Shown here one piece after another: positions 6,877-51,421 of a stretch of 64,000 nt of DNA. Origin of the DNA: Alistipes sp. (lineage in GTDB: Bacteria; Bacteroidota; Bacteroidia; Bacteroidales; Rikenellaceae). The stretch's first letter is position 1, and every line of letters begins with the position of its first letter. The notes under the pieces were generated by a model, which made no database searches, was not told the origin of the DNA, and worked only from the letters and a program-made list of their open reading frames with translations. The position numbers were made by a program, and so were the translations under genes. The DNA lies in assembly GCA_017437045.1 (NCBI GenBank), contig JAFSBY010000042.1:1643-65642 (forward strand). Direction: 5' to 3'.

Positions 6877-7318
6877 ATTACAAATTACATTACATTACAG
6901 GCCATGCCCCCTGTAATGTAATGTAATTAGTAATTGGAGGCGAAGCCTCCAATTACTAATACCTACAATCCCTCCTAAATCCTCCCTTTGATAAGGGAGG
7001 ACTTGAGGGGTAGTTCTAACGACCGTCTGTGCTGGGGTTCTAATAACCGCTGATACAGAGGGAGTTATAAGAATAATAAGAATAATAAGAATAATGTGAA
7101 TGCAGACGCTTATAGGAATAGGACTTTAGGCAGCCTTCACATAATTCCTATAACTCTTATTTTATTCCTATAATTCACTCTAAATTCTCAATTTAGGCGA
7201 ATCCAATTCATTTTGAATTCTAAATTCTAAATTTTGAATTTGGCCTTCGCAGCCTCCCAATTACAAATTACATTACATTACAGGGGGCATGGCCTGTAAT
7301 GTAATGTAATTTGTAATT
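6877..7318. repeat. Composite nested inverted-repeat element (family A copies 2 and 3 in opposite orientation, GCGAAGC hairpin, family C hairpin, 9-mer and 7-mer tandem repeats)
   Basis: Palindromes 6877-6934 and 7259-7318 with reverse-complementary cores ggccatgccccc / gggggcatggcc; 14-bp hairpin 6928-6958; (ATAATAAGA)n near 7068-7094. Confidence 0.9.
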
Positions 7319-25015: not shown

Positions 25016-25042
25016 CGTATCGGGGGTCGGCCTCGACGGCTC

Positions 25043-25096
25043 ATACCTACAATCCCTCCAAACCTCCCTTTGATAAGGGAGGCTTTTGGCGAGGGG
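25043..25096. repeat. Family C hairpin repeat
   Basis: atacctacaatccctcc-aaa-cctccctttgataagggagg; identical to 6959-7000 except for two 1-nt gaps. Confidence 0.85.
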
Positions 25097-45983: not shown

Positions 45984-46079
45984 CGTTCGCTCTGCAGTGT
46001 GTACTTTTGTCCGCCAAGTGGGAGGTCGTTTATCGAAGTGGCCTTCCTTGTTTTGTGGGGCTGTTAGCTTGCATTCTTG

Positions 46080-46120
46080 CCCATTGCTCCCATTGCTCCC
46101 ATTGCTCCCATAACTCTTAT
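46080..46120. repeat. 9-mer tandem repeat (CCCATTGCT)x3 + CCCATAACT
   Basis: Direct reading; ends in ataactcttat, also seen near 7150. Confidence 0.8.
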
Positions 46121-46132
46121 ACCCCCTCCCGC

Positions 46133-46168
46133 AAAAAAAACTCCCCCGACCAACCGGTCGGGGGAGTT
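46133..46168 (-). terminator. Terminator of rpsU
   Basis: aactcccccgacc / ggtcgggggagtt, with an A-run on +. Confidence 0.85.
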
Positions 46169-46189
46169 GAGCTATCTATCGGTGAACGA

Positions 46190-46381
46190 TTAGTCGTCCA
46201 GGTGATAGGTGTGCTGTACGTAGATGGCGTGAGCCATAGCGTCGCGCTTTGCGATCGAAGGCTTCGTGAAGTACTGACGACGACGCAGCTCCTTCAGAAC
46301 GCCCGTGCGCTCATACTTACGCTTGAACTTCTTCAGGGCGCGCTCGATGTTCTCGCCCTCCTTTACCGTAGTGATAATCAT
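46190..46381 (-). CDS. rpsU: 30S ribosomal protein S21
   Basis: VKEGENIERALKKFKRKYERTGVLKELRRRQYFTKPS. Confidence 0.97.
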   Translation of the reverse strand: MIITTVKEGENIERALKKFKRKYERTGVLKELRRRQYFTKPSIAKRDAMAHAIYVQHTYHLDD

Positions 46382-46615
46382 AGTTGTATTCTTTTTTTTG
46401 TGTTTAATGCTTCTATTGTTTGAGGTTGTCTCCCCGCTTGGGCAAGCCTCCTCTGGGCTTGGGAACTCTTTGTTGGCGAGCTGTTCCTCGCTCGGGATCG
46501 CTGCATGCTACTCATCGTAGGCAACAGCAGATCGCTGTTTGATCAATTTACAGTTTTGAATCGCTTTCTTGTAAGGTGTGCACCCCGAACCATTTGCTTG
46601 TTTATCACAAGCCGC

Positions 46616-47680
46616 TCAATCGGCCTCCGTGCCAAAGACCAAATAGGGTCTTAATCGCTCGGCCTCCTCTTGGGTTACTATTTTGTGTCGTACCAATTCC
46701 TGGGTGCTACTCCAACCTCCTTTCTGCGTTCTAAACTTAATTATTCTCCGTAACATGCCCGGCGGAATGTATGGATGCCGTCGGAGCGTTTCCGGAGGTG
46801 CAAAGTTAATATCAATTTTTTGAATTTCATTACTATCACAGCAAATTTGTTGCGAAATTTTGTAATAATTTTCGGGTGTGACCCCTCTAACCTCCCGAAT
46901 TTGCTCAATATGATGGAATCCACCGAGGCGCAGCCGGTATTTTAGGATCTCGACGACCGTCTTCTCGCCAATACCTACCACACGTCGCAGGGTGGCCGAG
47001 TCGGCTCGATTGATCTCGATCGGCTCCTCCCACGGGGTAGGCTCCGGCTCGGGGAAGAGGATGTAGGGCTCCAAGAGGGTGGCAATCGAATCCTCTACGA
47101 CGTAGCACTCCCGGAACTCTTCCATGTCGCGGAATCCGCTCCGGTCGCGCCAACGAATCACCGCCTCGGCCTGCCGTTTGGTAAAGGCTCCGATGGCGCG
47201 CAGATACTTGGCCGATACGGTGTCGATGCGGAATGGCGCGAGGGGTAGGCGAGGCAGGGAGTCCTTTACGCGCGTATAAGTATAGGTGCGCTCGGCGCGT
47301 GGTTTGATGCGATAGGCCTCGCCAATCTGGATGTAGGGAGCTAGCACCCGATAGGCCGAGTCGCTGATGCCATAGCACAAGGCCACATCTTCGGGGATGC
47401 GGAACACCTTGCCCGAGGCGCGAAATTTGAGTAGCGAGACCGCCTCGTAGCGGCTCATGCCTAACTCGCGGAGGGCCTCATAATCGGCCGTGTTGGGGTC
47501 GAAGGGGGCGAGTCGCAGGCTGTCGATCGGCTCCTCGGCTTCGTTGAGGCGTTCGACGGCTGCTGTGGCAAGGCTGTCTTCGCGACGCTCCGCGAGCCGC
47601 AGCCCGAGGATCACAGCCCCGGCCAGCAGCACAAAGAGCACCACGCCTTGCGACTCACGCTTTGTAAACCAACTTCCCAT
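46616..47680 (-). CDS. Helix-hairpin-helix (ComEA-like) domain protein
   Basis: N-terminal TM; repeated FDPNTAD, IEINRADSATLRRVVGIGE, IDINFA HhH modules. Confidence 0.88.
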   Translation of the reverse strand: MGSWFTKRESQGVVLFVLLAGAVILGLRLAERREDSLATAAVERLNEAEEPIDSLRLAPFDPNTADYEALRELGMSRYEAVSLLKFRASGKVFRIPEDVALCYGISDSAYRVLAPYIQIGEAYRIKPRAERTYTYTRVKDSLPRLPLAPFRIDTVSAKYLRAIGAFTKRQAEAVIRWRDRSGFRDMEEFRECYVVEDSIATLLEPYILFPEPEPTPWEEPIEINRADSATLRRVVGIGEKTVVEILKYRLRLGGFHHIEQIREVRGVTPENYYKISQQICCDSNEIQKIDINFAPPETLRRHPYIPPGMLRRIIKFRTQKGGWSSTQELVRHKIVTQEEAERLRPYLVFGTEAD

Positions 47681-47714
47681 AAGACAAAGGTACAAAATGT
47701 TTTGGGCCTACAAA

Positions 47715-47752
47715 CAAAAAAAGAGAGCCAATTTTGGGCTCTCTTCTTTTTG
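47715..47752 (-). terminator. Terminator following the duplicated sdhB 3' end
   Basis: aagagagcc(a)a / ttgggctctctt flanked by A/T runs. Confidence 0.75.
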
Positions 47753-47766
47753 TGATCCGTCAGATT

Positions 47767-47812
47767 GCTTAGTCTCTCAACTTTGCACGCAGGAACTCGC
47801 GGTTCAAGCGAG
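47767..47812 (-). repeat. 46-bp direct repeat of the sdhB 3' end (att-like)
   Basis: 44/46 identical to 47935-47980; both differences are synonymous in the sdhB frame. Confidence 0.92.
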
Positions 47813-47886
47813 TCCACCCCTTTTCAAAGGGGCCGGGGGATTGTCAATATCATTTGTGCTCTGCGCATATCGCTCGCTCATTGCTA

Positions 47887-47920
47887 CAAAAAAAAGAGCC
47901 CCGCAGGGCTCTTTTTTTTG
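47887..47920 (-). terminator. Terminator of sdhCAB
   Basis: caaaaaaaagagccc / gggctcttttttttg. Confidence 0.88.
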
Positions 47921-47936
47921 TACGTATCACGTTGGC

Positions 47937-48680
47937 TTAATCTCTCAACTTCGCACGCAGGAACTCGCGGTTCAAGCGAGCGATATGTGCAATAGAGATC
48001 CCCTTCGGGCACTCGGCCTGGCAAGCACCCGTGTTGGTGCAGTTACCGAAGCCCAGCTCGTCCATCTTGGCAACCATGGCCTTGGCGCGACGAGCACCCT
48101 CTACGCGACCCTGCGGCAGCTTGGCCAGCGACGAAACGCGGGCAGCCACAAACAGCATAGCCGAACCATTCTTACACGTTGCAGCGCAAGCACCACAACC
48201 TACGCAAGCGGCAGCATCCATCGACTCGTCAGCATCGGCCTTCGGAATCGGAATAGCATTGGCATCGGGTACCGAATTGGTGCGAACCGATACGTAACCA
48301 CCGGCCTGGAGAATCTGGTCGTAAGCACCACGATTCACTACGAGGTCCTTGATCACGGGGAAGGCAGCCGAACGCCACGGCTCGATGGTGATCGTGTCGC
48401 CATCCTTGAACTTGCGCATATAGATCTGGCAGGTCGTGGCATTCTGGCCGGGACCGTGTGCCAAACCGTTGATGTGCAGCGAGCACATACCGCAGATACC
48501 CTCGCGGCAGTCGTGGTCGAATGCCACGGGATCCTTACCCTCGTGTACGAGGTTGTTGTTCAGAATATCGAGCATCTCGAGGAACGACGTGTCAGCCGAA
48601 ATGTCGCTAACCTTGTAGGTCTCGAATGCGCCCTTCGATTTTGCGTCCTTCTGACGCCATATCTTTAAGGTGAAATTCAT
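47937..48680 (-). CDS. sdhB: Succinate dehydrogenase/fumarate reductase Fe-S subunit
   Basis: [31 protein letters not shown]. Confidence 0.97.
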
Positions 48681-48719
48681 AATTTCTGTGTTATTAAAGT
48701 GTTGTACGTCAAAAGTTGA

Positions 48720-50666
48720 TTAGTCTTTGTAGTTACGCTGCTTGCGCTCGGTGAACTCGTAGTCGAGAGCCTCCTTCGTCAGCTCGGGAGCCTCGTCCAT
48801 ACCCTTGTACTCCCATACGGCAGCATAGGAGAACTCCTCGTCGTGACGCAGCGCCTCGCCCTCCTCGGTCTGGTGCTCCGAGCGGAAGTGGCCACCGCAC
48901 GACTCCTCGCGGTTCAAGGCGTCGCGAGCCATCAGCTCACCCAACTCCAGGAAGTCGGCCAGACGCAGTGCCTTCTCCAACTCTACGTTGAACGACATGG
49001 GATCGCCTACGACCTTCACATCCTTCCAGAACTCCTTGCGCAGTGCCTGGATCTCCTTGATAGCGGTGTTGAGCGACTCCTTCGTACGAGCCATGCCGAC
49101 ATTCTCCCACATGATGTTACCCAACTTCTTGTGGATGTCGTCCACCGACTGCTTACCATTGATTGACATCAGCTTGGCGATCTTATCCTTCACGGCCTTC
49201 TCTGCCTCGTCGAATGCAGGCGTATCGGTCTTGACCTTCGGAGCCTGAATCTTCTTAGCGAGGTAATCGCCGATCGTGTAGGGCAGCACGAAGTAACCAT
49301 CGGCCAGACCCTGCATCAGGGCCGAAGCACCCAGACGGTTAGCACCGTGATCCGAGAAGTTGGCCTCACCGATTGCATACAGACCCGGGATCGTGGTCAT
49401 CAGGTTGTAGTCCACCCAAATACCACCCATCGTATAGTGCACGGCGGGGAAGATCTGCATCGGCTCCTTGTAGGGGCTTACGTCGGTGATCTCCTCGTAC
49501 ATGTCGAACAGGTTGCCATAACGCTGCTTGATGATATCCTCACCCAGACGCTCGATGGCGGTCTTGAAATCGAGGAATACGGCCAGACCGGTCTCGTTTA
49601 CACCATAACCGGCATCGCAACGCTCCTTGGCGGCACGTGAAGCCACGTCACGCGGCACGAGGTTACCGAAGGCCGGATAACGACGCTCCAGGTAGTAGTC
49701 GCGGTCCTCCTCGGCGATCTGCGAGGGCTTGAGCGTACCTGCGCGCAGCGCCTTCACATCCTCCAACTTCTTGGGAACCCAGATGCGGCCGTCGTTACGC
49801 AACGACTCCGACATCAGCGTCAGCTTCGACTGCTGCGTGCCGTGTACGGGGATACACGTGGGGTGGATCTGCGTGAAGCAGGGGTTGGCAAAACCGGCAC
49901 CCTTGCGGTAGCACTGGAATGCAGCCGAACCGTTCGAACCCATGGCGTTGGTCGAGAGGAAGAATACGTTACCGTAACCACCCGATGCGATGACCACGGC
50001 GTGTGCACCATGACGCTCGATCTCACCCGTTACGAGGTTGCGAGCGATGATACCGCGAGCCTCGCCATCTTCGACAACGATGTCGAGCATCTCATGACGC
50101 GGATAGCTCTTTACCGAGCCGGCAGCGATCTCCTTGTTCAGGGCAGCGTAGGCACCCAGCAGCAGCTGCTGACCCGTCTGACCACGTGCATAGAAGGTAC
50201 GCGATACCTGGGCACCACCGAACGAACGGTTAGCCAGCAGACCGCCGTACTCACGTGCGAAGGGAACACCCTGGGCTACGCACTGGTCGATAATGAGGTT
50301 CGACACCTCGGCCAGACGATAGACGTTCGCCTCACGAGCGCGGTAGTCACCACCCTTGATCGTATCGTAGAAGAGGCGATAGACCGAGTCGTTGTCGTTC
50401 TGATAGTTTTTAGCGGCGTTGATACCACCCTGTGCGGCGATCGAGTGGGCACGACGGGGCGAGTCCTGAATGCAGAACACCTTGACGTTGTAACCCAGCT
50501 CGCCGAGCGACGCAGCAGCTGCACCACCACCCAGACCGGTACCGATCACGATGATGTCGAGCTTGCGCTTGTTGGCGGGGCTCACTACCTTAATGGCTGC
50601 CTTGTGGTTGCTCCACTTTTCGGCCAGAGCACCGGCAGGAATTTTAGCATCTAATTTGAAAGCCAT
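48720..50666 (-). CDS. sdhA: Succinate dehydrogenase/fumarate reductase flavoprotein
   Basis: GTGLGGG FAD motif, [29 protein letters not shown]. Confidence 0.97.
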
Positions 50667-50707: not shown

Positions 50708-51421
50708 TTAGCACGCTGCGCAGCAGGGGCAGTGTTGAGCTACGTAGTACCATACTACGACGGCTGCAAAGCCCAGGAAGATGAGCGTAGCCAGTGCGTT
50801 GGCAGCAAACTTCAGACGCGGATACCACGTATCGTTGGCGCAACCGGCCGTCTGGAACATCGACCAGATACCGTGCGTGAGGTGGAACCACAGAGCCACG
50901 AACCATACCAGGTAGATCACGACGTTGTACCACTCCTTGAAGGTGTAGGCGATCAAGGCAGCACCATCGGTCGGCGATACAACCTGACCATTGCAGAGCA
51001 CAACCTCATGGTTGTCGAGCAGCTCCTGCAGCTGCATCTTGGCCCAGAAGTGCGTCAGGTGCAGACCCAGACCCAGCAGGACGATGACACCCAGCACCAA
51101 CATGTTTTTCGACGACCACGACACACCCGGCTCCTTGGTCGTTACGGCATAACGCTGTTTACCGCGAGCACGGTAGTTGTCCAGCGTCAGAATCAGCGCA
51201 TAGCCAAAGTGAACCAATACGCCCAATGCCAATACAACCGTTCCGGCAAGTGCATACCAGTTAGCACCGAGGAATTTGCAGATGGCATCATAGCCCTCGG
51301 GCGAGATGATCGCCACGACGTTCATGGACATGTGGAAGAGGATGAAGAGTACCAGGAACAGACCCGAGAGGCTCATCACCAGCTTCTTGCCCAACGAAGA
51401 ATTGCAAAGAAAGCAGCTCAT
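50708..51421 (-). CDS. sdhC: Succinate dehydrogenase cytochrome b subunit
   Basis: KKLVMSLSGLFL..FHM, HLTHFW, HLTHGIWSMFQT; operon position. Confidence 0.93.
   Translation of the reverse strand: MSCFLCNSSLGKKLVMSLSGLFLVLFILFHMSMNVVAIISPEGYDAICKFLGANWYALAGTVVLALGVLVHFGYALILTLDNYRARGKQRYAVTTKEPGVSWSSKNMLVLGVIVLLGLGLHLTHFWAKMQLQELLDNHEVVLCNGQVVSPTDGAALIAYTFKEWYNVVIYLVWFVALWFHLTHGIWSMFQTAGCANDTWYPRLKFAANALATLIFLGFAAVVVWYYVAQHCPCCAAC

What the first reader, a model, noticed from the sequence alone, without database searches (positions are those of the whole stretch)
47715..47991. Duplicated sdhB 3' end with synonymous-only changes, second terminator and an inverted copy of the junction
Seen: 47767-47812 repeats 47935-47980 (last 14 codons plus stop; 44/46 identical; GCG to GCA and GAT to GAC are both silent), and each copy is followed by a different terminator. 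In the 122-bp spacer, 47862-47877 (TGCGCATATCGCTCGC) is the reverse complement (15/16) of 47976-47991, the sequence straddling the repeat's start inside sdhB, and a family C hairpin abuts the duplicate. Established: integrative elements carry a copy of the target gene 3' end so the gene is restored on insertion. Inference: a minimal or decayed element targeting sdhB, an unusual target. The inverted junction copy is not explained by simple att duplication and might be a recognition arm or guide-like sequence.
Basis: partly seen in the sequence, partly recalled or inferred. Interest (0 to 1): 0.68.

Follow-up and report, generated by a model that had tools for sequence, protein, structure and literature searches.

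The report
Hairpin repeat module duplicating sdhB's end
The duplicated end of the succinate dehydrogenase gene is real. It is one unit of a small non-coding hairpin module, found at the ends of conserved genes and tRNAs in many Alistipes gut bacteria, that carries a direct and an inverted copy of its insertion site; it is not the scar of a classical integrating element.

Summary
It is not a one-off. The "family C hairpin" (core GACAAWCCCTCCAAACCTCCCTTTGAWAAGGGAGG) has about 29 copies in this genome and occurs in 65 of 151 Alistipes species genomes.

A subset of copies shares one layout: gene end (R1), a spacer often holding a terminator, an inverted copy ("anti") of the 12-20 nt straddling the start of R1, the hairpin, then a second gene end (R2). 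I found it at sdhB, rny, der, korB, a TonB-dependent receptor gene, tRNA-Thr and the tmRNA gene. tRNA-Gly loci show a looser variant.

At sdhB the module occurs in about 15 species, as 1 to 3 tandem units of about 170 bp, while two close relatives are empty. At korA-korB a clean empty-versus-filled comparison shows an insertion of about 145 bp.

The inverted piece follows each species' own synonymous changes. The orphan copies differ from the gene mostly at third codon positions.

I found no integrase in the element or beside any hairpin copy, and no Y1 transposase, reverse transcriptase or IS110 recombinase gene. Best reading: a non-autonomous repeat module whose arrays grow, shrink and vanish by recombination between the R copies. 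How it inserts is unresolved. The earlier scan note e1-4195578 saw the same hairpin on other DNA.

The parts
47937..48680 (-). sdhB/frdB, the iron-sulfur subunit (247 aa). Its last 14 codons plus stop lie in R1.
   Evidence: ORF; Pfam Fer2_3, Fer4_8 and Fer4_7.
47975..47991 (-). Junction inside sdhB (11 nt upstream of R1 plus the first 6 nt of R1) that the inverted piece complements.
   Evidence: Inverted repeat I2, 16/17; chance expectation 0.01.
47935..47980 (-). R1: in-gene copy of the 46-nt repeat (14 codons, TAA, plus 2 nt).
   Evidence: family D1.
47885..47922 (.). Terminator 1: a perfect 17-bp palindrome with A8/T8 tracts, able to act in both directions.
   Evidence: repeat I1; fold.
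47862..47878 (-). 'anti': inverted copy of the sdhB junction. Its one mismatch to the resident gene falls on a synonymous site (GCG versus GCA).
47813..47855 (-). Family C hairpin, the most divergent copy in this genome: GATATTGACAATCCCCCGGCCCCTTTGAAAAGGGGTGGA.
   Evidence: nhmmer 33.7 bits, E 4e-8; family alignment.
47767..47812 (-). R2: orphan copy of the sdhB 3' end, 44/46 identical, still reading ...[13 protein letters not shown].
47716..47750 (.). Terminator 2, of the 'Tb' type shared with other species' sdhB arrays.
   Evidence: alignment.
47767..47934 (-). One 168-bp repeat unit (spacer plus terminator 1, anti, hairpin, R). This is the period of the array.
   Evidence: Spacing 168. Periods of 169-182 bp in most other species, 215 in G121 and 303 in G045.
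46616..47695 (-). Downstream ComEA-like gene (HHH_3). It is not syntenic in relatives and is not part of the module.

Best explanation
The locus holds one 168-bp unit plus the native gene end of a genus-wide, non-coding, non-autonomous repeat module built around a conserved hairpin of about 38 nt (family C).

Layout of a full module: a direct copy of the interrupted gene terminus keeps the gene intact and leaves an orphan copy. A 12-20 nt inverted copy of the sequence spanning the duplication boundary follows, usually just after a terminator. The rest is short, fast-evolving filler.

Shown: (a) the layout recurs at many conserved genes and at tRNA and tmRNA genes; (b) it is an insertion relative to empty orthologous sites; (c) unit number varies from 0 to 3 between species, and from 1 to 2 among metagenome contigs of one locus type.

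Inferred: once a unit is present, homologous recombination between R copies adds, removes and shuffles units and can restore a scar-free empty site. This would keep the orphan copies looking like coding sequence.

Inferred with less confidence: the first unit at a site arises by a duplicative, template-switching (copy-choice) event around the hairpin. That event would write both the inverted patch and the direct repeat from local sequence. An integrase acting on att sites is the less likely origin.

Whether the long stem between the coding sequence and the inverted piece serves the element (single-stranded DNA recognition) or the host (fate of the RNA 3' end) is open.
For: Family size: about 29 hairpin copies in this genome. 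The 35-mer with up to 3 mismatches is in 65 of 151 Alistipes genomes, with 0 hits for the reversed control pattern, and is identical across species whose genes differ by 10-20%.

Same layout elsewhere: RNase Y, Der GTPase, tRNA-Thr and the tmRNA 3' end in this genome; korB, a TonB-dependent receptor gene and an AIRS_C gene in metagenomes and relatives. The tRNA-Gly locus carries a 40-nt flanking repeat and the hairpin but no junction-spanning inverted piece. Gene identities come; the tmRNA was recognised by eye, since ARAGORN called no gene in the truncated locus.

sdhB module in about 15 species with 1-3 units. Two terminator types occur in swapped order. The 92%-identical relatives G016 and G109 carry no module.

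korA-korB: a full-length (filled) match in 2 of the 124 genomes with a match; in the genomes with two listed matches the flanks lie about 20 nt apart, and the seven empties aligned show korA stop, 2-5 nt, then the korB ATG. This defines an insertion of about 145 bp with an orphan 30-nt 5' end.

der: the inverted piece lies 29-38 nt after the stop in 14 of 30 species, R2 is present in 11 of 30, and the empties G016 and G109 carry the same downstream flank that follows R2 in this genome.

The inverted piece tracks the resident gene. At sdhB own identity is 14.6/16 against 13.4/16 for other species' genes, with 0 of 100,000 permutations as good. At der, TTTTTCGGG/CCCGAAAAA becomes TTTTTCCGG/CCGGAAAAA. 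At rny, GTACCCGGG versus CTTATCCGG is matched.

Differences between R1 and orphan copies fall 11/2/35 by codon position.

Small direct repeats flank the inverted patch. Copy number varies from 1 to 2 units among metagenome contigs of one locus.

No mobility genes found: no ORF in the spacer; no Y1 transposase in 6 genomes; no RVT_1 or IS110 DEDD domain in this genome; integrases lie elsewhere.
Against: - No insertion intermediate or enzyme is identified, so the template-switch origin rests on anatomy only.
- The same part order at many loci looks more deterministic than sporadic replication errors.
- Many hairpin copies are solitary, without repeat or inverted piece, so the hairpin alone does not force the layout.
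- The hairpin can lie in either orientation relative to the inverted piece and R (tRNA loci versus protein genes), which no simple model predicts.
- Compensatory changes in the stem and in the hairpin variants fit a selected structure as well as re-copying does.
- The codon-position count used a pattern that tolerated only third-position variation in 9 of the 15 codons. My hand count on the 8 unconstrained codons gives 7/2/21 and was not scripted.
- The species genomes are related, so permutation values overstate independence.
- This genome is 93% complete, so a trans-acting gene could be missing.
Confidence: 0.55

Rival explanations
1. Scar or miniature derivative of a site-specific integrative element (att duplication by a tyrosine integrase; a CIME-like cis-mobilisable remnant). 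The spacer would be the fused attP arms.
For: Direct repeats that restore a gene's 3' end, and targets typical of integrases: tRNA-Thr, tRNA-Gly, the tmRNA 3' end and housekeeping genes. Tandem arrays resemble tandem accretion. tRNA-Gly loci carry further repeat motifs and tRNA 3' fragments that could be real att remnants.
Against: There is no recombinase in or beside any module, and the 4 integrase genes of the genome are remote. No kilobase-sized insertion between the R copies was seen in the roughly 57 species whose sdhB downstream I read. One conserved hairpin serves about nine different targets, each with its own target-derived arm. At korB the 5' end of a gene is duplicated inside an operon. 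The length of R varies from 25 to 73 nt.
Confidence: 0.12
2. A selected structured element working at the RNA level (3' UTR, trailer or small RNA). The inverted piece pairs with the end of the coding sequence, enclosing the stop codon and terminator, and the hairpin follows. It would control 3'-end stability, read-through or processing.
For: The predicted fold has the 17-bp stem between coding sequence and inverted piece, at -114 kcal/mol with z = -7.8. Compensatory changes keep that stem at sdhB, der and rny. Hairpin variants in different lineages keep their stems through double changes, for example CCTCCCTT/AAGGGAGG, CCCCTCCTT/AGGAGGGG and TCCCCCTTT/AAAGGGGGA. The position after the stop is fixed within each locus.
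Against: The orientation relative to transcription is not constant: reversed at korB and at tRNA loci. The module is optional, with close relatives empty. The first terminator lies between the pairing partners. Array units each carry an inverted piece that cannot all pair, and some have decayed (G082, G118, G097). There is no Rfam match. No expression data could be obtained.
Confidence: 0.2
3. A self-guided mobile module. Folded as single-stranded DNA or RNA, the inverted piece and the adjacent direct copy flank a scaffold hairpin and present both strands of the target to a trans-encoded enzyme. Analogies are the guide sequences of IS200/IS605 ends, the folded attP of CTX-type IMEX phages, and the two guide strands of an IS110 bridge RNA loop.
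For: Geometry: antisense-left, hairpin, sense-right, overlapping by 3-13 nt at the junction at every locus. Junctions tend to follow WWWTC (ATATC|G, TTATC|C, TTTTC|G, AAATC|G, TATATC|G, GATTC|A), read by eye. The target junction is regenerated, which would allow repeated insertion, and arrays are seen.
Against: No Y1 transposase, IS110 recombinase or reverse transcriptase gene was found. The guides would have to be rewritten at each new target by an unknown step. R is far longer than any known guide. Solitary hairpins lack guides.
Confidence: 0.12
4. A one-off local tandem duplication or an assembly artefact in this genome only.
For: The two R copies in this genome share lineage-specific residues (LRAKLRD), as a recent in-place duplication would.
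Against: The same layout is present in more than 12 independently assembled species and at other loci. The two terminators differ, while the coding part is 96% identical.
Confidence: 0.03

Closest known systems
REP/BIME, ERIC/IRU and similar small extragenic palindromic repeats
   Same: Short conserved hairpin, tens of copies per genome, mostly just after genes and terminators, mosaic and tandem arrangements, optional between strains, no coding capacity.
   Different: No RAYT/Y1 transposase gene in six genomes. Full modules carry long copies of the neighbouring gene end plus an inverted copy of the junction, which I do not know to be described for REP or ERIC.
Integrative elements and CIMEs that duplicate a gene's or tRNA's 3' end (for example ICESt1/CIME at fda, NBU elements at tRNA genes); from my own knowledge
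   Same: The gene end is restored, an orphan copy is left, targets are tRNA, tmRNA and housekeeping genes, and arrays can form.
   Different: About 120-170 bp with no recombinase. One hairpin family serves many different targets. An inverted junction copy is present. A 5' end is duplicated at korB.
Quasipalindrome and template-switch mutations, and microhomology-mediated templated insertions
   Same: Short inverted and direct copies of nearby sequence appear next to a stable hairpin. Small direct repeats flank the inverted patch. Filler DNA is present.
   Different: Here the outcome is stereotyped, recurs at many loci and is conserved across species. It is not a sporadic mutation.
Folded single-strand attachment sites and guide-bearing ends (CTX phage attP(+), IS200/IS605 guide sequences, the IS110 bridge RNA target loop)
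   Same: An inverted copy of the target lies 60-100 nt from a direct copy. The pairing reconstitutes the target duplex. The target is regenerated and arrays follow.
   Different: This is an analogy only. No Xer-dif-like common target, no Y1 or IS110 enzyme gene, and target-specific sequences differ at every locus.
The 'four-helix' intergenic repeat of Rikenellaceae noted earlier in this scan (e1-4195578)
   Same: It shares the family C hairpin as one helix. It is optional, structured, and found in Alistipes-like genomes.
   Different: That composite has its own inverted ends and a long variable hairpin and shows no gene-end duplication. The sdhB module uses only the C hairpin plus target-derived parts.

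Membership tests
Integrative element / att-site scar (tyrosine integrase) | Direct repeats of the target flank the insert | tested here: met
   46-nt repeat, 44/46.
Integrative element / att-site scar (tyrosine integrase) | A recombinase gene in the element, or a larger element at the same site in relatives | tested here: not met
   No ORF of 40 aa or more lies within the 122-bp spacer. PF00589 hits sit on other contigs or 30 kb away. The sdhB downstream regions I read hold only 0-3 small units.
Integrative element / att-site scar (tyrosine integrase) | One specific attachment sequence per element family | tested here: not met
   The same hairpin sits at about nine unrelated targets.
REP/BIME with RAYT | Short conserved extragenic palindrome in many copies | tested here: met
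   About 29 copies here; 65 of 151 genomes.
REP/BIME with RAYT | A cognate Y1 (RAYT) transposase gene | tested here: not met
   PF01797 is absent from G000, G097, G109, G042, G091 and G111, and the control genomes were positive.
MITE | Terminal inverted repeats, a short fixed target-site duplication, and a parent IS | tested here: not met
   Flanking repeats are 25-73 nt and variable. The ends are target-derived. No parent IS was found.
IS110-type element with bridge RNA | DEDD/serine recombinase gene with an adjacent two-loop RNA | tested here: not met
   PF01548 is absent from G000. The unit is only 168 bp.
Diversity-generating retroelement (template and variable repeat at a gene's 3' end) | A reverse transcriptase and adenine-specific differences between the repeats | tested here: not met
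   No RVT_1. The differences are A/G and C/T at synonymous sites.
Invertible DNA switch (inverted repeats flanking a segment) | Inversion gives a second functional state | tested here: not met
   Read: inverting 47879-47974 would replace the sdhB tail and stop after about 20 new codons without reaching R2.
Described RNA family (Rfam 15) | A match to a curated covariance model | tested here: not met
   Only sub-threshold terminator-like hits. None on composite copies apart from a neighbouring RNase P RNA.
Alistipes family C gene-end module (defined here) | Order R1, spacer or terminator, inverted junction copy, family C hairpin, R2 | tested here: met

The most novel reading that the evidence does not exclude
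The module is a self-targeting mobile unit. The inverted junction copy and the adjacent direct copy, held on either side of the conserved hairpin, act as a nucleic-acid guide that presents both strands of the target to a trans-acting enzyme. A new guide is written from the target at each insertion. If so, this would be a naturally reprogrammable, protein-free cargo for guided insertion at the ends of conserved genes.
Probability: 0.1. Interest if true: 0.88.

Novelty: new variant of a known kind. Interest (0 to 1): 0.62.

Why it matters
Small intergenic repeats are usually treated as simple hairpins. Here a hairpin family comes with stereotyped copies of its own insertion site. A direct copy keeps essential genes intact, and an inverted copy stays complementary to the gene through synonymous change.

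This gives a tractable system in common gut bacteria for two questions. The first is how non-autonomous repeats spread without disrupting genes. The second is how gene-end arrays turn over.

It also matters for annotation and assembly. Orphan gene ends, double terminators and contigs joined across the shared hairpin copy (L142, L163) are to be expected at these loci.

Tried and rejected
- Rfam at a permissive threshold on 46000-49000 and on six composite copies: nothing relevant.
- Exact search for the sdhB junction plus R 52-mer in metagenome contigs: no hit, so no same-species empty or filled alleles were found.
- Y1 transposase, reverse transcriptase and IS110 recombinase searches: all negative. 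Integrases are not linked to hairpin copies.
- Filler segments (spacer, and the linkers on either side of the hairpin) have no second copy in this genome, so they are not flanks carried over from a donor locus here.
- Inversion between the 17-nt arms does not join sdhB to R2 in frame (read by hand).
- A diversity-generating retroelement reading was rejected: no reverse transcriptase and no adenine bias.
- Fold-back priming by the spacer's 3' end: no microhomology where it would be needed (by eye).
- One literature search found no description of such modules. A second query was malformed and not repeated.
- The automated classifier for repeat and inverted piece used strict distance cut-offs and missed known cases such as rny. 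Its counts are therefore lower bounds.

Full report
**1. The observation**

On the minus strand the window encodes sdhC (50708-51421), sdhA (48720-50666) and sdhB (47937-48680). Pfam supports all three.

The last 14 codons, the stop and two further bases of sdhB (47935-47980) recur at 47767-47812 with 44/46 identity. Both differences are silent and both copies end in TAA.

Between the copies lie, in gene orientation:
- a perfect 17-bp A/T-flanked terminator palindrome (47922-47885);
- a 17-nt stretch (47878-47862) that is the reverse complement, 16/17, of the sdhB sequence straddling the start of the repeat (47991-47975);
- 10 nt of linker;

A second terminator (47750-47716) follows the orphan copy. 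The 17-mer pair is expected 0.01 times by chance.

**2. The hairpin is a genus-wide family**

The window lies in a 2.2-Mb draft genome, 55% G+C and 93% complete. The closest sdhB relatives in the public genome collection are Alistipes and other Rikenellaceae assemblies.

A profile built from the first copies finds about 29 family C hairpins in this genome. The sdhB copy is the most divergent.

There are two sub-types. One begins GATATAGACAAW and is the one seen with target copies. The other begins AATACCTACAAT and sits inside larger composite repeats.

The core 35-mer with up to 3 mismatches occurs in 65 of 151 species-level Alistipes genomes, up to 13 times per genome. The reversed control pattern gives no hit. 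The core is letter-identical in species whose housekeeping genes are 80-90% identical.

An exact 38-mer scan of metagenome contigs returned 72 loci; several contig names say human gut and two name animal samples.

I saw such composites myself.

**3. The sdhB layout is a family layout**

I use these labels, read in the direction that places the gene before the hairpin:
- X: gene body.
- R: the duplicated terminus.
- S: spacer, often with a terminator.
- anti: reverse complement of the end of X plus the start of R.
- y and x: short linkers.
- C: the hairpin.
- D: native flank.

The layout is X-R-S-anti-y-C-x-R-D.

| Locus | Where | Details |
|---|---|---|
| RNase Y gene | this genome | R about 60 nt; anti CCCGGGTACG |
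| Der GTPase gene | this genome | the two copies differ at 5 positions, all synonymous, including TAA/TAG; anti CCCGAAAAATCC |
| tRNA-Thr(CGU) | this genome | two tandem units |
| a second tRNA 3' end | this genome, at two contig ends | tandem units |
| tmRNA 3' end | this genome | R is the terminator itself; tmRNA recognised by eye, ARAGORN called no gene in the truncated locus |
| TonB-dependent receptor gene | metagenomes and relatives | period 124 |
| AIRS_C-domain gene | metagenomes and relatives | |
| korB | metagenomes and relatives | the 5' end (ATG plus 8 codons) is duplicated and C is reversed relative to the gene |

The tRNA-Gly(CCC) locus in this genome is looser. It has a 40-nt repeat of the native flank on either side of C and a sense copy of the tRNA 3' end abutting C, but no junction-spanning inverted piece. 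tRNA-Gly(GCC) loci in metagenomes and relatives carry an inverted copy of the tRNA 3' end after C, without an R duplication.

At tRNA loci C is inverted relative to anti and R, so the hairpin's orientation within the module is not fixed.

Many copies are solitary, with neither repeat nor anti.

**4. It is an insertion, and it comes and goes**

At the korA-korB junction, 124 of 151 genomes matched the query. Only G140 and G062 gave a full-length match, meaning a filled site. In the genomes with two listed matches, the two flanks lie about 20 nt apart. The seven empties I aligned show korA stop, 2-5 nt, then the korB ATG. The filled allele, which is also the recurrent metagenome form, has about 145 extra bases. 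The native flank adjoins the orphan copy, and a 45-nt fast-evolving filler precedes the true gene.

At der, the inverted piece lies 29-38 nt after the stop in 14 of 30 species and a second gene end is present in 11 of 30. The close relatives G016, G109, G082 and G118 are empty. G016 and G109 carry the same downstream flank that follows the orphan copy in this genome.

At sdhB:

| State | Species genomes |
|---|---|
| Two or more intact R motifs | G000, G045, G047, G054 (3), G082, G091, G097, G118 (3), G121, G140 (3), G163, G165 |
| Decayed second copy | G042, G011, G004 |
| No module (92% identical relatives) | G016, G109 |

Two terminator types occur in opposite order in different species. 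Arrays end either after a terminator or after a hairpin.

Metagenome contigs of the TonB-receptor locus type carry one or two units.

All of this fits frequent recombination between R copies. I infer unequal exchange, loop-out, and reintegration or transfer. Such exchange can also erase the module without a scar.

**5. Two signs of constraint**

First, the inverted piece follows its own gene.
- At sdhB, identity to the resident gene averages 14.6/16 against 13.4/16 for other species' genes. None of 100,000 permutations was as good. The complement is perfect over 20 nt in G042, 18 nt in G004, 16 nt in G165 and 14 nt in G091 and G011, despite different Ala and Arg codons.
- At der, the three module-bearing species with TCC instead of TCG have CCGGAAAAA instead of CCCGAAAAA.
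- At rny, G000 and G091 differ at three synonymous sites and the inverted pieces match each.
- In other species the piece has decayed (G082, G118, G097).

Relatedness of the species inflates these statistics. The pattern needs either re-copying, gene conversion between the arms, or selection for pairing.

Second, orphan copies differ from the in-gene copy mainly at third codon positions: 11/2/35. The pattern I used to find copies allowed only such variation in 9 of 15 codons. My hand count on the 8 free codons gives 7/2/21. This argues that orphan copies are not simply rotting in place. Exchange with the functional copy, or origin from other lineages' functional alleles, would explain it.

In this window the inverted piece also differs from the resident gene at a synonymous site (GCG versus GCA).

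**6. What it is not**

- The spacer encodes nothing.
- There is no Y1/RAYT gene in six genomes, and no reverse transcriptase or IS110 DEDD domain in this genome. Its four tyrosine recombinase genes are unlinked to hairpin copies.
- No Rfam family matches.
- Filler segments are unique in the genome.
- Inversion between the 17-nt arms would truncate sdhB (read).

The integrative-element reading keeps some weight because the targets (tRNA, tmRNA, housekeeping gene ends) are classic integrase targets. It fails on three points: the recombinase, target specificity, and the korB 5'-end case.

**7. Mechanism**

Shown: the anatomy, the insertion status, copy-number change, and covariation.

Inferred: array dynamics by homologous recombination at R.

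Inferred with lower confidence, about one in three: the first unit arises by template switching around the hairpin. Three observations fit this:
- The inverted patch is often bracketed by short direct repeats. Examples are TTGTTGTGCA/TTGTTATTTACA in the G097-type sdhB unit, CGCTGCGGTGG/CGCTGCGCTGG at the AIRS_C gene, and GATTTACAAT/GATATCGACAAT at der.
- Fillers are unique.
- The direct copy restarts within a few bases of a short microhomology in some units, such as CGAC in G054.

Selection would then keep only outcomes that preserve the gene end. That explains why R always reaches the stop or start codon.

Against this origin, the part order is very regular, and junctions tend to follow WWWTC. 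Both hint at an enzyme or a guided single-strand process.

The predicted RNA fold is strong (z = -7.8), so an RNA role is a live, non-exclusive rival.

**8. Comparison and verdict**

The module works most like a REP/ERIC-type extragenic hairpin repeat combined with the gene-end-restoring duplication known from integrative elements. It meets the full definition of neither; the membership tests give the details.

I know of no description of hairpin repeats that carry an inverted copy of their own insertion junction. One literature search found none.

I rate it a new variant of a known kind, of moderate to high interest. The most novel reading still open is a self-guided insertion module, at about 10%.

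Limits: no read or expression data, draft genomes, related species, and part of the counting done by eye.

Noticed in passing
window 6959-7010 and about 25040-25090 (G000:C40:8626 and C40:26708): Two further family C hairpins of the AATACCTACAAT sub-type lie in the window. The other follows a tRNA gene and its terminator, without any duplication.
   Followed up: partly
L009 (G016), L016 and L025 downstream of sdhB; G000:C32 about 22000 downstream of the rny orphan copy: A different repeat of about 110 nt (…GGTGATTTC..GTTACGC…AATGCTCACATACG…GCAAGCCTTGAAATCCC…) recurs after gene ends in several Alistipes genomes. It looks like another small mobile family.
   Followed up: no
L232, L225, L223, L146, L238, L240, L230, L226: Composite elements bounded by the inverted ends GTTTTAGCCTTTCG/CGAAAGGCTAAAAC. 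They hold a long hairpin whose stem sequence differs completely between copies while its loop CAAGC..GCTTG is kept, followed by an A-rich tract and family C. This is probably the 'four-helix' repeat of note e1-4195578.
   Followed up: partly
L142 and L163 (metagenome contigs): The left flank of the korB module is joined through the shared hairpin to the right flank of the TonB-receptor module. This is either an assembly chimera at the repeat or real recombination between hairpin copies.
   Followed up: no
L119, L120, L174, L250, L251, L256-L258; G000:C41:95400-96200: tRNA-Gly loci carry a second conserved motif (…CCTTCCAGGGGTTGGGGGTGTAAA…) together with repeated tRNA 3' fragments and, after the hairpin, an inverted copy of the tRNA 3' end. 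These may be genuine attachment-site remnants of another element nested with family C.
   Followed up: no
L181, L182, L185 and L279 downstream regions: Heptamer microsatellites (CTAAAGG-like: GGTTACTAAAGGATGCTAAAGG…) lie just beyond the modules in several species.
   Followed up: no
L184 (G091), 225-265 nt after the sdhB stop: The start of an inverted piece is fused directly to the end of an R copy (GAGGCGAG|TTCTTATCTGCGAAGATTCAGGACTGA). This looks like an internal deletion across a GCGAG microhomology that removed the hairpin.
   Followed up: no
der locus: None of the seven sampled species whose der gene reads GGAYTTCTC instead of GGATTTTTC has the module. This could reflect a target requirement or simply clade structure.
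   Followed up: no
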